Positions 37,277 through 46,072 of a stretch of DNA of 54,256 bases are shown one piece after another. The notes beneath the pieces were generated by a model that searched no databases, was not told the origin of the DNA, and saw nothing but the letters and a program-made list of their open reading frames with translations. The number at the start of each line of letters is the position of its first letter. Positions within the stretch are counted from its first letter, which is position 1. The stretch covers positions 1 through 54,256 of the forward strand of contig JAKAFY010000009.1 of NCBI GenBank assembly GCA_021817785.1, read 5' to 3'. Source of the DNA: a bacterium. Its GTDB lineage: Bacteria > Patescibacteriota > Microgenomatia > UBA10105 > UBA927. The position numbers and the translations under genes were made by a program.

Positions 37277-37305
37277 TTGACACGACGCGCTATATCTTCT
37301 ACAGT
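37277..37305 (+). promoter_or_regulatory. sigma70-type promoter for HU
   Basis: TTGACA-N17-TACAGT. Confidence 0.65.
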
Positions 37306-37372
37306 GCCTCATAGAGATCGTTGCAACAATCTCTAAAAATATTTTTCTCGTTCTAACCTTCTGCCCAACGTT

Positions 37373-37482
37373 GGAGGCTTGCCTCCCGAAGTCCATCCTC
37401 AGAAGGCTTCGCAAAATTTTTTCCTGAGGTGCGGATTCCCTTTCGCATGACACAAGGGACGGATAGGAGGTGAAATACACAC
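37373..37482 (+). ncRNA. candidate structured leader RNA (hairpin plus two pseudoknots plus SD), copy 1
   Basis: homologous to the reverse complement of 45664-45777 with pairing-preserving changes. Confidence 0.75.
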
Positions 37483-37755
37483 ATGACAAAAGCAGATCTT
37501 GTTGAAGTCGTCGCAAAGAAAGCCAACTTAACCGCAAAAGCCGCGCGTGAAGCGGTGGCTGCAGTTTTTGGCGCCGTCACTGACGCTTTGAAAAAAGGCG
37601 ATAAAGTGGTGGTAACCGGATTTGGTACCTTTATGGTACGAAGCCGGAAAGCACGCACCGGGCGAAATCCCCAGACGGGGACCGCGATCAATATCCCGGC
37701 GCGCAAGACTCCTGGCTTCACCGCTGGGAAAGCACTCAAAAAAGTTGTCCGGTAA
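37483..37755 (+). CDS. hup: DNA-binding protein HU
   Basis: MTKADLV, GFGTF, RKARTGRNPQTG; SD AGGAGGTGA. Confidence 0.97.
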   Translation: MTKADLVEVVAKKANLTAKAAREAVAAVFGAVTDALKKGDKVVVTGFGTFMVRSRKARTGRNPQTGTAINIPARKTPGFTAGKALKKVVR

Positions 37756-43394: not shown

Positions 43395-43866
43395 GCACAT
43401 TTGGGAACCTCGTAAGCCAGATTCTGTTTCACCATGCCGGCGCTTTTGCGCAGGCGGGTTCTGATTCTCATTTCTCTGATGCCCGTAAACTTCGGTCCTT
43501 CCGAATGCGTGGTTTACCCGAACAAAGTTCTTGCGAAATTTGCGCGGGTTAATAACGGACCATTCGCCGGTTGCAGCAGGTGGGATTGCCTTTTACCCGC
43601 CGTAGCTTTACGCGTAGGCGGGAACGTTTCACACTCTTTACATGCCGTCATAAACATTCTCACGTGGGGAATATTTATTCCGGTTTAGTAAAGAGATCGT
43701 CTCTGTGGCTCTCTCGTCCTGTCAATTCAGGATTCGTTTCCTTTGGCTTTCGCCTCAGGACCACCCGACTTTTCAGCGGGGAGCTTGCGCTCCCTCCCTT
43801 GCATTCTGCTGTCTGGACTTTCCTCCCGCCTCAAACGGCGGGTGAGAATCCGGGTTCCCAAAGTGC
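43395..43866 (-). ncRNA. rnpB: RNase P RNA
   Basis: minus strand has GAGGAAAGTCCAGA and AACAGAATCTGGCTTAC (P4 halves), GCCACAGAGACGA, GTGAAACG; P1 TTTGGGAACC/GGTTCCCAAA. Confidence 0.93.
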
Positions 43867-45522: not shown

Positions 45523-45663
45523 TTAGCCACCGATCTTATACATACCGGTTCCGCAAACTGGGCATTTCCCTTTCATTGCCGGTTTGCCGTTTTTCATCGT
45601 CACTTTGACGGCTTTTGGATCGTCGCGCTTCGCGCGGCATTTTACACAATACATTTCTGCCAT
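45523..45663 (-). CDS. 46-aa basic zinc-ribbon protein (DUF5679-like), not in ORF track
   Basis: hand translation MAEMYCVKCRAKRDDPKAVKVTMKNGKPAMKGKCPVCGTGMYKIGG; SD GGAGGTGA; terminator downstream. Confidence 0.88.
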   Translation of the reverse strand: MAEMYCVKCRAKRDDPKAVKVTMKNGKPAMKGKCPVCGTGMYKIGG

Positions 45664-45777
45664 AGTGTCATTCACCTCCCTTCACCCTCCGAAGTTTTAT
45701 GCGAAGGAGGGTTTCGCACCTCAGTATGTATTGCTTCGAAGCGTTACTGAGAATCGGCTTCGGGAGGCACAGGCCTC
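45664..45777 (-). ncRNA. candidate structured leader RNA (hairpin plus two pseudoknots plus SD), copy 2
   Basis: homologous to the HU leader at 37373-37482. Confidence 0.75.
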
Positions 45778-45790
45778 AAACATAAGTATG

Positions 45791-46072
45791 TTAATGCGGC
45801 AAATAATGAGAGAGCAGGAATTCACTGGCGATTATACAGACGGTTATGATCAGTGTTTTGGATAAATCCCGCTTTATAGCGCTGAATTCATTGACAGACG
45901 CAGTGACGGCACGTGATGGCATTGGTGCTTCATGGGCGGGAAGCGTCAGATGAAATGATTCGGTTGTAGCGGAAGCGGACGGTGATACGGACGAAGACGA
46001 TGGGACGACGGGAGCCAAACGCATCCTGTGCTGTTGGGCAAGCAGTTTTTCTTTTTTCGTTTTCTTTGGCAT
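45791..46072 (-). CDS. small hypothetical protein: basic N-terminus, Ser/Pro linker, C-terminal TM helix
   Basis: MPKKTKKEKLLA...IKRDLSKTLIITVCII; TTGACA-N18-TACGCT upstream (46144-46115). Confidence 0.75.
   Translation of the reverse strand: MPKKTKKEKLLAQQHRMRLAPVVPSSSSVSPSASATTESFHLTLPAHEAPMPSRAVTASVNEFSAIKRDLSKTLIITVCIIASEFLLSHYLPH

What the first reader, a model, noticed from the sequence alone, without database searches (positions are those of the whole stretch)
37373..37482. Candidate new cis-regulatory RNA: hairpin plus tandem pseudoknots shared by HU and a small zinc-ribbon gene
Seen: the HU leader GGAGGCTTGCCTCCCGAAGTCCATCCTCAGAAGGCTTCG..CCTGAGGTGCGGATTCCCTTTCGCATGACACAAGGGACGGATAGGAGGTGA aligns colinearly with the minus-strand leader at 45777-45664, GAGGCCTGTGCCTCCCGAAGCCGATTCTCAGTAACGCTTCG..ACTGAGGTGCGAAACCCTCCTTCGCATAAAACTTCGGAGGGTGAAGGGAGGTGA. 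Both fold the same way (HU copy versus copy 2). P0: GGAGG-CTTG-CCTCC versus GAGGC-CTGT-GCCTC. Pseudoknot 1: P1 CGAAGT/GCTTCG versus CGAAGC/GCTTCG; P2 CCTCAG/CTGAGG versus TCTCAGTA/TACTGAGG. Pseudoknot 2: P3 TGCGGA/TTCGCA versus TGCGAA/TTCGCA; P4 TCCCT/AGGGA versus ACCCTCC/GGAGGGT. An extended SD follows 5-6 nt later. Stem changes keep pairing while linkers diverge. Inference: a conserved RNA device co-regulating two small basic proteins. The pyrimidine P3 loop could alternatively pair with the SD, suggesting a translational switch; a nuclease-blocking stabiliser is another option. I do not recognise it as a known family.
Basis: partly seen in the sequence, partly recalled or inferred. Interest (0 to 1): 0.88.

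Follow-up and report, generated by a model that had tools for sequence, protein, structure and literature searches.

The report
Tandem-pseudoknot mRNA leader in CPR bacteria
Two small genes in this tiny-genome bacterium carry the same folded RNA cassette, a hairpin plus two pseudoknots just ahead of the ribosome-binding site; it is real, conserved by selection, unlisted in the RNA family library searched, and partly built from a tiny palindromic insert that also sits inside genes and other RNAs.

Summary
The HU leader (37373-37482, +) and the DUF5679 zinc-ribbon leader (45777-45664, -) are homologous. Both fold as P0 hairpin, H-type pseudoknot PK1 (P1/P2) and H-type pseudoknot PK2 (P3/P4), ending 4-5 nt before a GGAGGUGA Shine-Dalgarno.

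I found 14 such cassettes in 10 genomes of two lineages. They sit ahead of HU (6), DUF5679 (2), Transgly_assoc stress-membrane proteins (3), a YflT/DUF2795 protein (1) and two unknown ORFs. On these 14, 90.6% of 320 pair cells are standard pairs, 0 of 500 shuffles reach this, and all four helices show compensatory changes. Stems stay 68% identical where HU third codon positions (43%) and loops (35%) are near saturation.

No Rfam 15 family matches. The cassette is a clean indel: HU genes 90-99% identical lack it.

The P4 hairpin is one copy of a promiscuous 25-27-nt palindromic mini-element. That element also lies in RNase P RNA, cobalamin and FMN riboswitches, terminators, and in frame inside LeuRS, Fpg, TatD, RecG and ThrRS.

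Most likely function (about 0.4): a portable structural block next to the SD that protects and insulates the ribosome-binding site. This is not a ligand switch. Co-regulation of exactly HU and the zinc-ribbon gene occurs only in this genome.

The parts
37277..37305 (+). HU promoter-like site: TTGACA, 17 nt, TACAGT
   Evidence: Consensus scan. The same two hexamers are kept upstream of HU in metagenome relatives and in G017. The transcription start is inferred, not mapped.
37313..37346 (+). 5'-proximal hairpin (AGAGAU/AUCUCU) followed by an A/U run, at the start of the HU leader
   Evidence: Read. The stem covaries among relatives (AGAGAC/AUCUCU, GUGAUUG/CAAUCC, UUCCCGCC/GGCGGGAC). Function not tested.
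37360..37368 (+). Conserved UCUGCCCAA, left boundary of the cassette insertion
   Evidence: Alignment A11: G017, L097, L098 and L101 run from this motif straight into AGGAGGUGA. G000 has about 96 extra nt here.
37373..37386 (+). P0 hairpin GGAGG-CUUG-CCUCC (HU copy)
   Evidence: P0 covaries in other cassettes: GGGGC/GCCCC in L176, GGGGC/GCCCU in L320 and L325. It is weak or absent in G429, G425, G018 and G445.
37387..37429 (+). PK1 (HU copy): P1 37387-37393/37405-37411; P2 37397-37402/37424-37429; L1 3 nt, L2 2 nt, L3 12 nt
   Evidence: loop lengths; pair counts: P2 94% paired, P1 81%.
37430..37459 (+). PK2 (HU copy): P3 37430-37435/37442-37447; P4 37437-37441/37455-37459. A degenerate copy of the palindromic mini-element that keeps only the pseudoknot pairings
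   Evidence: P3 is 96% and P4 94% paired over the cassettes that have the module. The HU row is misaligned by 1-2 columns in the model-based alignments, so I read it by hand.
37465..37473 (+). Shine-Dalgarno AGGAGGUGA, 5 nt after P4; ATG at 37483
   Evidence: The same GGAGGUGA follows every cassette.
37483..37755 (+). HU gene (90 aa)
   Evidence: Pfam PF00216, E 1.4e-32.
45764..45777 (-). P0 hairpin GAGGC-CUGU-GCCUC (zinc-ribbon copy), 14 nt after the stop of the upstream 117-aa ORF
45719..45762 (-). PK1 (zinc-ribbon copy): P1 45762-45757/45742-45737; P2 45752-45745/45726-45719; L1 4, L2 2, L3 10 nt
45685..45718 (-). PK2 (zinc-ribbon copy): P3 45718-45713/45705-45700; P4 45711-45706/45690-45685. 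P4 plus its loop is a near-consensus copy of the mini-element
45672..45680 (-). Shine-Dalgarno GGGAGGUGA; ATG 45663-45661
45523..45663 (-). DUF5679 zinc-ribbon gene (46 aa)
   Evidence: Pfam PF18930, E 5.1e-16.
43596..43622 (-). Another copy of the mini-element (stem CCCGCC/GGCGGG, UAC/UAC internal loop) inside the RNase P RNA gene

Best explanation
The feature is a portable, cis-acting 5'-UTR cassette. It has a CUUG-type hairpin (P0) and two H-type pseudoknots whose four helices follow one another with 0-3 nt between strands. The cassette ends 4-5 nt upstream of a strong GGAGGUGA Shine-Dalgarno. PK2 arose when a copy of a promiscuous palindromic mini-element, sitting next to the SD, was captured by an upstream GCGAA strand that pairs with its loop (P3). 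I infer that the compact pseudoknot stack works structurally. It would act as a roadblock to 5'-to-3' decay by RNase J after endonucleolytic cleavage in the A/U-rich upstream leader. It would also act as an insulator that keeps the CU-rich, anti-SD-like strands paired, so the SD stays open. The result would be long-lived, well-translated mRNAs for small abundant proteins (HU, DUF5679, Transgly_assoc and YflT-type stress proteins). Shown: the structure, its conservation under selection, its position, its portability and its make-up. Inferred: the effect on stability and translation.
For: Structure and selection: 14 cassettes, 90.6% of 320 cells paired, 13 pairs with double changes, 0/500 shuffles, slid controls 35-44%. 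Among five HU-leader genomes the stems are 68% identical, against 35% for loops and 43% for HU third codon positions. Geometry fits classical H-type knots: gaps between successive strands are 2-4, 2-3, 10-15, 0-1, 0-2, 0-1 and 7-9 nt in the five two-module leaders measured. In 13 of the 14 cassettes the last helix ends 4-5 nt before the SD (G445: 1-2 nt); this includes the two PK1-only leaders, G018 and G445. No loop nucleotide is invariant, so there is no sign of a ligand pocket. Portability: the cassette precedes five or more unrelated gene families. It is a clean indel between UCUGCCCAA and the SD of HU. In the degenerate HU copies of G000, G425 and G429, the element's own inner helix and UUC/UUC loop are lost while P3 and P4 pairing is kept with compensatory changes. 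This points to selection on the pseudoknot. The genome has RNase Y, directly upstream of HU, and RNase J (471 bits against a cut-off of 400). Precedent: B. subtilis hbs (the HU homologue) has a highly structured 5' UTR cleaved by RNase Y, and RNase J1 is blocked at a strong SD (PMC5737220, abstract read).
Against: No expression, end-mapping or half-life data: no RNA run holding the stretch was listed. Close relatives do without the cassette, so any benefit is dispensable. A purely structural block does not explain why P0, the CCGAAGCC/CCGUAGCC string and GAGGUGCGAA are so well kept in sequence across two lineages. Nor does it explain why several stress-type genes in one genome share the cassette (G463 three, G467 two, G000 two); that pattern also fits a shared trans-acting factor. 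In nested-only folding, the SD is mostly paired in all eight leaders (P unpaired 0.15-0.47). With the pseudoknot strands blocked it is only 0.40-0.56 open, and 0.07 in G429. The SD-kept-open part is therefore weakly supported.
Confidence: 0.4

Rival explanations
1. The cassette is an operator for a trans-acting RNA-binding protein. This could be HU itself, which prefers nicked or kinked helices such as stacked pseudoknots, or another global factor. Bound protein next to the SD would repress or activate translation, making the cassette-bearing genes a small post-transcriptional regulon.
For: Six of 14 cassettes precede HU, in six genera. Several unrelated genes in one genome share the cassette. 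Sequence conservation goes beyond what pairing requires. The cassette abuts the SD. Recalled, not tested here: E. coli S15 and T4 gene 32 protein autoregulate through pseudoknots in their own leaders, and E. coli HU binds structured RNA.
Against: In G463 and G017 the HU gene itself has no cassette while other genes do. HU genes 90-99% identical lack it. No binding test is possible with these tools. DUF5679 is not a general partner of the hairpin: 3 of 5 element-bearing genomes of other phyla lack the family, and 4 of 5 DUF5679 leaders checked in cassette-bearing genomes have no hairpin.
Confidence: 0.25
2. The cassette is a translational switch built from decoy SD and anti-SD strands. In the ON state, P0 (GGAGG:CCUCC) and P4 (CCCUCC:GGAGGG) hold the anti-SD-like strands. 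In the OFF state, CCUCCCGAAGC pairs with GCUUCGGAGG of the element, and the freed CCCUCCUU pairs with the SD. Temperature, ribosomes or a factor would toggle it.
For: The complementarities exist in G000, G017, G019, L116 and L251. Minimum-free-energy folds pair GCCUCCC with the SD. In G429, which lacks the P0 5' arm, the SD is predicted to be paired (P unpaired 0.07). Some cassette genes are of stress type (YflT, Transgly_assoc).
Against: P0 covaries to GGGGC/GCCCC in L176, which keeps P0 but puts a mismatch into the proposed OFF helix. Stems of the hairpin ahead of DUF5679 in relatives (CCCCAC, UCCACC) cannot pair with GGAGG. G018, G445 and G425 lack a CCUCC strand in P0. PK1 and P3 pair the same strands locally.
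Confidence: 0.1
3. The cassette is selfish or neutral. The leaders are mosaics of a mobile palindromic element and its debris, tolerated next to the SD, with no benefit to the host.
For: P4 is a copy of an element that inserts almost anywhere, including in frame in essential genes. The cassette is present or absent among very close relatives. CCUCCGAAGC and GCGAA are the reverse complements of the two halves of the element's loop region (read).
Against: PK1 (P1/P2) is not part of the element and was not found outside leaders: R1 over 87 order genomes, 41 genomes around G463 and 151 class genomes. Its stems are conserved and compensated over a divergence that has nearly saturated synonymous sites and loops. 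In the HU copies the element decays but P3/P4 pairing is kept.
Confidence: 0.1
4. The cassette is a small-molecule riboswitch of the H-type pseudoknot kind (like preQ1-II or SAM-II) that senses a stress signal.
For: Pseudoknot architecture with an A-rich L3, position next to the SD, and several genes per genome.
Against: No hit to any riboswitch family in Rfam 15, even at E up to 10. No invariant loop or junction nucleotides. P1 differs in sequence between the two lineages (CGAAGCC/GGCUUCG against GUAGCCAG/CUGGAUAC). The associated genes are not metabolic or transport genes.
Confidence: 0.04

Closest known systems
B. subtilis hbs (HU homologue) leader and Gram-positive 5' stabilisers
   Same: The same gene family (HU) has a long, highly structured 5' UTR and a strong SD. 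RNase Y and RNase J are both present in the host. In hbs, RNase Y cleaves the 5' UTR and RNase J1 is blocked at the ribosome-binding site (PMC5737220, abstract).
   Different: No sequence or structural homology was shown. In hbs the block is the initiating ribosome plus a 5'/3'-UTR duplex, not pseudoknots. A 5'/3'-UTR duplex test here was not significant (87 of 300 shuffles at least as good). STAB-SD and aprE-type stabilisers are recalled from memory, not checked.
Autoregulatory pseudoknot leaders (E. coli rpsO/S15, T4 gene 32) - recalled, not tested
   Same: An H-type pseudoknot in the leader of a nucleic-acid-binding protein's own mRNA, close to the ribosome-binding site.
   Different: Those knots are specific to one gene. 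This cassette is shared by at least five gene families and is missing from many HU genes. The Rfam scan, which includes ribosomal-protein leaders, gave no match.
Strings of consecutive pseudoknots (TMV 3' upstream pseudoknot domain, tmRNA PK2-PK4) - recalled, not tested
   Same: Two H-type pseudoknots in direct succession, with 0-1 nt between P2 and P3. This could allow one quasi-continuous stacked rod.
   Different: Different location (5' UTR of bacterial mRNAs), size and sequence. The stacking is inferred from strand spacing only.
H-type pseudoknot riboswitches (preQ1-II, SAM-II, fluoride, guanidine-III)
   Same: Topology, size range, A-rich L3 and position by the SD.
   Different: No Rfam match. 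No conserved pocket nucleotides. The gene set is not metabolic.
Rickettsia palindromic elements (RPE) and other intragenic MITE-like repeats, for the P4 mini-element
   Same: Dispersed palindromic repeats that insert in frame into unrelated housekeeping genes and also lie in RNA genes. RPE: passages of the review PMC10969869 read. Here: LeuRS, Fpg, TatD, RecG, ThrRS, RNase P RNA and riboswitches.
   Different: 25-27 nt instead of about 150 bp. The same sequence is found under titles of many phyla rather than one genus. No transposase, terminal repeats or target duplications were identified. I recall Elhai's very small mobile repeats of cyanobacteria as the nearest in size, but did not read that paper.

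Membership tests
Any Rfam 15 family | Covariance-model score at or above the family's gathering threshold | tested here: not met
   The whole window at gathering gave only one tRNA. Both leaders at E up to 10 gave four chance-level hits of 12-16 bits. Twenty hairpin-bearing loci gave tRNAs and one Cobalamin hit only.
H-type pseudoknot (structural class) | Two helices in the order S1-5', S2-5', S1-3', S2-3', each supported by pairing across homologues | tested here: met
   P1/P2 and P3/P4 have this order in all copies. Paired cells: P1 81%, P2 94%, P3 96%, P4 94%. Every helix has at least one pair with compensatory double changes.
H-type pseudoknot (structural class) | Loop lengths able to span the helices (short L1, short or no L2, longer L3) | tested here: met
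   PK1: L1 2-4, L2 2-3, L3 10-15 nt. PK2: L1 0-2, L2 0-1, L3 7-9 nt. Measured in five two-module leaders; the script stopped before the other three.
Riboswitch | Invariant nucleotides in loops or junctions that could form a ligand pocket | tested here: not met
   No invariant loop column in A6, A9 or A13. PK1 loops are 35% identical on average.
Riboswitch | Association with genes of one metabolic or transport pathway | tested here: not met
   Downstream genes: HU 6, DUF5679 2, Transgly_assoc 3, YflT/DUF2795 1, unknown 2.
5' mRNA stabiliser / RNase J roadblock | Stable structure in the 5' UTR, upstream of and close to the ribosome-binding site, in a host with RNase J | tested here: met
   In 13 of 14 cassettes the last helix ends 4-5 nt before the SD; in G445 the gap is 1-2 nt. 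RNase J and RNase Y genes are present.
5' mRNA stabiliser / RNase J roadblock | Raises mRNA half-life; exonuclease stops at its 5' edge | not testable with these tools
   No RNA run holding the stretch was listed. A wet-lab assay is needed.
Autoregulatory protein operator | Found on the regulator's own mRNA wherever the system exists | tested here: inconclusive
   HU carries the cassette in 6 genomes but lacks it in G017 and G463, where other genes carry it.
Autoregulatory protein operator | Specific binding of the protein to the RNA | not testable with these tools
   Complex prediction takes no RNA chain, so it was not used.
Mobile palindromic repeat (RPE-like), for the P4 hairpin only | Many dispersed near-identical copies in unrelated contexts, in both orientations | tested here: met
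There are 84 matches in the 80 loci I read. One 1.0-Mb Babeliales-titled genome has 18 copies. The core is in 22 of 101 class genomes, against 1 genome for the reversed control pattern.
Mobile palindromic repeat (RPE-like), for the P4 hairpin only | In-frame insertions in conserved protein genes that are absent from orthologues | tested here: met
   Open through LeuRS, Fpg, TatD, RecG and ThrRS, with Pfam domains on both sides. For BipA the position relative to the true start and stop was not settled. G000 orthologues show gaps at the site in TatD (21 aa), RecG (22 aa) and ThrRS (6 aa); LeuRS is in a variable stretch; there was no Fpg hit.
Mobile palindromic repeat (RPE-like), for the P4 hairpin only | Mobilising enzyme, terminal repeats or target-site duplications | not tested
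   Not searched. I only noted by eye that a purine-rich GGAGG-like string often follows the element.

The most novel reading that the evidence does not exclude
A previously undescribed 25-27-nt palindromic mini-element has the form stem, symmetric 5'-CUNCG/5'-CUNCG internal loop, short helix. It spreads across bacterial phyla and lands in frame in essential genes, in RNase P RNA, in riboswitch loops and next to Shine-Dalgarno sequences. In two CPR lineages it has been domesticated: an upstream strand captures its loop to make a pseudoknot. Together with PK1 and P0, this forms a shared operator that puts HU and small stress proteins under one post-transcriptional control.
Probability: 0.2. Interest if true: 0.8.

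Novelty: new variant of a known kind. Interest (0 to 1): 0.6.

Why it matters
Structured mRNA leaders are almost unexplored in CPR/Patescibacteria, which cannot be grown alone and whose regulation is largely unknown. This finding gives a covariation-supported RNA family of 14 members. It has an unusual tandem-pseudoknot build and sits ahead of the main nucleoid protein and small stress proteins. That offers a concrete handle on how these tiny cells set the output of their most abundant proteins. It also shows a structured RNA assembled from a mobile palindromic insert. The same insert is tolerated inside essential proteins, RNase P RNA and riboswitches across many lineages. If the insert is unreported, as four literature searches suggest, it bears on how repeats seed new RNA structure and new protein loops.

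Tried and rejected
- **Nested folding** of both leaders cannot represent the knots. It gave unremarkable z-scores and inconsistent SD partners, so I did not use it as evidence of structure.
- **First guess on L046.** I thought the hairpin lay in RNase P P3. That was wrong: the locus is an FMN riboswitch (55.3 bits, below the gathering score of 66.2). RNase P RNA with an element copy does occur, in the window itself.
- **DUF5679 as the hairpin-binding protein.** The family is absent from 3 of 5 element-bearing genomes of other phyla (completeness unknown). 4 of 5 DUF5679 leaders in cassette-bearing genomes have no hairpin. An earlier impression of 7 of 7 was an artefact of finding those leaders with the model.
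- **The PK1-only model R2.** It found nothing beyond its eight training sequences in 151 class genomes, in 56 loci with filters off and in 78 loci (where it re-found G019's record as L286). It also missed the second-lineage cassettes that R1 scores at 58-86 bits, so its negatives are weak.
- **An hbs-like 5'/3'-UTR duplex** was not significant (87 of 300 shuffles at least as good).
- **RNA-seq.** No RNA holder was listed, and read laying was not used.
- **Conserved upstream ORF.** None: an 8-codon ATG ORF exists only in the G000 HU copy (read).
- **Literature.** Nothing on DUF5679 function (3 papers, mentions in passing; listing only). No hits for element sequence strings or its peptide strings. 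Nothing relevant on small palindromic inserts in Patescibacteria (listings only). Supplements were closed and not seen.
- The structure, complex, atlas and protein-homology search tools were not needed.
- The G019 row used wrong coordinates (inside the CDS) and should be ignored.
Full report
**1. Observation**

They align colinearly at 79% column identity. They are the only two copies in the window's own genome, G000 (1.28 Mb, 38 contigs, 96.7% complete).

The downstream genes are an HU protein (PF00216, E 1.4e-32) and a 46-aa DUF5679 zinc ribbon (PF18930, E 5.1e-16). The gene upstream of HU is RNase Y.

Rfam 15 gives only a tRNA for the whole window at gathering thresholds. For the two leaders at E up to 10 it gives only chance-level hits of 12-16 bits.

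**2. Homologues and distribution**

- BLAST in 60 relatives found full-length homologues in G017 (DUF5679 leader) and G019 (HU leader).
- The exact string CCTCCCGAAG-N10-25-GCTTCG occurs in 3 of 401 class genomes, at 4 sites.
- I built covariance model R1 from the four copies. Over all 87 genomes of the order it gave matches at E<=1e-5 in 15 genomes (family sample).
- Reading those matches shows PK1 in 7 of the 87 genomes, at 8 sites: HU in G000, G019, G429, G425, G018 and G445, and DUF5679 in G000 and G017.
- G018 and G445 have PK1 only.
- The other matches are a hairpin plus SD without PK1.

A second lineage turned up when I screened copies of the hairpin for an upstream P3 strand (locus L273).

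- Its genome, G463 (2.2 Mb; HU 69% identical to G000's), has three full cassettes. They precede a YflT+DUF2795 protein, a Transgly_assoc protein and a 49-aa ORF.
- The HU leader of G463 has none.
- Among 41 genomes around G463, 3 have matches at E<=1e-8. G467 has two, both ahead of 83-85-aa proteins that resemble L319's Transgly_assoc protein by eye (Pfam not run). G478 has one, ahead of a 203-aa ORF.

In a class sample of 151 genomes, R1 at E<=1e-9 found only G000 (strict filters, 24 candidates scored per genome). Of 46 metagenome HU loci, R1 found one partial form, L116.

The total is 14 cassettes in 10 genomes. Loci of two family-level relatives are identical to records whose titles say Patescibacteria group or Candidatus Gottesmanbacteria. 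The host is therefore a CPR bacterium.

**3. Covariation and selection**

On the 14 cassettes aligned to R1 (A13):

| Measure | Result |
|---|---|
| Cells forming standard pairs | 90.6% of 320 |
| Pairs with changes on both sides | 13 of 25 |
| Shuffles reaching the observed values | 0 of 500 |
| Paired cells when partners are slid by 1-3 columns | 35-44% |
| Paired per helix | P1 81%, P2 94%, P3 96%, P4 94% |

Caveats:

- The alignment was fitted to P2 and P4.
- The sequences are related.
- The G425 row is shifted by one column in P2, which creates five spurious single-cell double changes.
- The G000 HU row is misaligned in PK2.

In the correct register the compensations are as follows (and by eye).

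| Helix | Compensatory changes |
|---|---|
| P1 | C-G to U-A (L319); A-U to U-A (five second-lineage rows) |
| P2 position 1 | C-G / U.G / U-A |
| P2 position 4 | C-G / U-A (G017) |
| P2 position 5 | A-U / G.U / U-A (L320) |
| P2 position 6 | G-C / A-U |
| P3 outer pair | U-A / C-G (G017, one column off) / A-U (G429, G425) |
| P3 second pair | G-C / A-U (G478) |
| P3 inner pair | A-U / U-A (G425) |
| P4 | C-G / A-U (CCAUCC/GGAUGG) |

The G.U pairs would be A.C mismatches on the other strand, so the structure belongs to the mRNA strand.

Among five genomes with the cassette on HU, mean pairwise identity is 94% at codon positions 1+2 and 43% at position 3. It is 35% in PK1 loops and 68% in PK1 stems. 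The stems have been held by selection over a divergence that has nearly saturated neutral sites.

P1 is the weakest helix. G425 has two mismatches, the second lineage has a G-A mismatch, and L323 and L324 keep only the inner GCC/GGC part.

**4. Anatomy**

Strand spacing fits textbook H-type knots (five leaders).

| Knot | L1 | L2 | L3 |
|---|---|---|---|
| PK1 | 2-4 nt | 2-3 nt | 10-15 nt, often A-rich at its 5' end |
| PK2 | 0-2 nt | 0-1 nt | 7-9 nt |

The P2 3' strand runs into the P3 5' strand with 0-1 nt between them. The four helices could therefore stack into one rod; this is an inference.

In 13 of the 14 cassettes the last helix ends 4-5 nt before GGAGGUGA (G445: 1-2 nt); this includes the PK1-only leaders.

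P0 is a CUUG-type tetraloop hairpin in G000 HU, G019, G463 and L116. It covaries (GGGGC/GCCCC, GGGGC/GCCCU) but is weak or absent in G429, G425, G018 and G445.

**5. The cassette is an indel**

The HU promoter-like TTGACA-17-TACAGT, a covarying 5' hairpin with an A/U run, and the string UCUGCCCAA are shared with relatives. In G017 (HU 99% identical) and in metagenome loci L097, L098, L099 and L101 (90-96%), UCUGCCCAA runs straight into the SD. G000 has about 96 extra nt there.

The DUF5679 copy sits in a 128-nt spacer that begins 14 nt after the stop of the upstream ORF. In G425, G429, G019 and G018 that spacer has neither hairpin nor knot.

Only G000 has the cassette on both genes.

**6. PK2 is built on a promiscuous mini-element**

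The P4 hairpin with its loop (CCCUCC-UUCGCAUAAAGCUUCG-GAGGG) matched many places in relatives, often near contig ends.

Its stem covaries: CCCGCC/GGCGGG, CCCCAC/GUGGGG, UCCACC/GGUGGA, CCGUCC/GGACGG and others (though those copies were selected for paired stems). Its core is a symmetric internal loop, UUC/UUC, UAC/UAC or UCC/UCC, over a short helix of variable length.

Abundance:

- Titles name many CPR groups and also Babeliales, Verrucomicrobiota, Planctomycetota, Bacteroidota and others. Some titles are unreliable: one 'Gammaproteobacteria' record is G041 of this order.
- One 1.0-Mb Babeliales-titled genome has 18 copies.
- 22 of 101 class genomes have the core, against 1 genome for the reversed control pattern.

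Copies lie in these places:

- inside a Cobalamin riboswitch (34.6 bits, above the gathering score);
- at the 5' edge of an FMN riboswitch match (55.3 bits, below the gathering score);
- inside this window's RNase P RNA (33 bits, E 1e-8, far below the gathering score of 100);
- after tRNA genes, followed by a U run in the reverse orientation (by eye);
- within about 35 nt upstream of a start codon with an SD in about 17 of 84 matches (by eye);
- in frame inside LeuRS, Fpg, TatD, RecG and ThrRS, at sites where G000 orthologues have gaps.

Only 14 of 181 distinct copies have 5 or more contiguous pairs between the 6 nt upstream and the loop start. The 6-pair cases are essentially the cassettes. 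P3 is thus a special addition.

In the HU copies of G000, G425 and G429 the element's own inner features have decayed, while P3 and P4 are kept with compensation. Selection in the leader therefore acts on the pseudoknot.

**7. What it does**

Several points argue against a ligand switch:

- no invariant loop bases;
- two different P1 sequences;
- non-metabolic downstream genes;
- no Rfam match.

An HU-specific operator is weakened by G017 and G463, where HU lacks the cassette and other genes carry it.

The SD/anti-SD switch is weakened by covariation that preserves P0 and P4 rather than the alternative helices.

A neutral relic is contradicted.

What remains best supported is a portable, cis-acting structural module set directly against a strong SD. 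It occurs in organisms with RNase Y and RNase J, ahead of small and presumably abundant proteins. I read it as a decay roadblock and insulator of the ribosome-binding site. This is the role played by the initiating ribosome and UTR structure in B. subtilis hbs (PMC5737220, abstract only).

That several stress-type genes in one genome share the cassette keeps a trans-acting factor in play at about 0.25.

**8. Novelty and limits**

The kind of feature, a structured pseudoknotted leader, is known. This family, its tandem build and its origin from a mobile palindrome are not known, as far as these searches reach.

There is no expression or biochemical evidence. The transcription starts are inferred. 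The distribution is from samples with strict filters and is probably an underestimate.

The names S21, ATP synthase c and Hsp20 for some hairpin-plus-SD genes are my reading of the translations and were not tested.

Noticed in passing
window 43596-43622 (-); loci L183-L262 and others: A 25-27-nt palindromic mini-element (consensus CCUCC-UUCGCRUAAAGCUWCG-GAGG) is dispersed in many bacterial MAGs of several phyla. It sits in frame inside LeuRS, Fpg, TatD, RecG and ThrRS, inside riboswitches and RNase P RNA, as terminators after tRNAs, and next to SD sequences. The two sides of its internal loop tend to be the same (UUC/UUC, UAC/UAC, UCC/UCC). I found no paper on it.
   Followed up: partly
window about 43450-43861 (-): An RNase P RNA gene (class A model, 33 bits, E 9.9e-9, far below the gathering score of 100). 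The hit is cut at the low end of the stretch I searched. It has a GGAGGAAAGUCC motif and carries a mini-element copy in a peripheral region. The gathering-threshold scan missed it.
   Followed up: partly
window 37313-37346 (+) and relatives L096-L101, L306: Directly after the conserved HU promoter there is a hairpin whose stem covaries among relatives, followed by an A/U-rich run. It could be a 5'-terminal stabilising hairpin or a leader terminator. The string UCUGCCCAA after it is also conserved.
   Followed up: no
G000:C22:62966-62992 (-), L040, L080, L092: In several genomes, mini-element copies are followed by a second conserved hairpin (CUAAGAAAC ... GUUUCUUAG) and then an SD. This could be another shared leader, of unknown gene class.
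   Followed up: no
L116, L176 (= L303), L251, L321: Shorter leader forms have P0 plus CCGAAGCC, then a spacer, the mini-element and the SD, but no P1 3' strand or P2. One is in a Woesebacteria-titled record. L321 has P0 and the SD only. CCGAAGC is complementary to the 3' half of the element's loop.
   Followed up: partly
L244, L193, L234, L228: In some genomes the element occurs in tandem with a 32-nt period (L244). In others it lies inside longer repeats, found as inverted (L193) or direct (L234) copies with identical flanks.
   Followed up: no
window 45831-45838 (-): An extended -10-like TGTATAAT lies inside the 3' end of the ORF upstream of the DUF5679 gene, about 55 nt before P0. The zinc-ribbon gene may therefore have its own promoter as well as read-through from upstream. 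The consensus scan, which needs a -35, did not report it.
   Followed up: no
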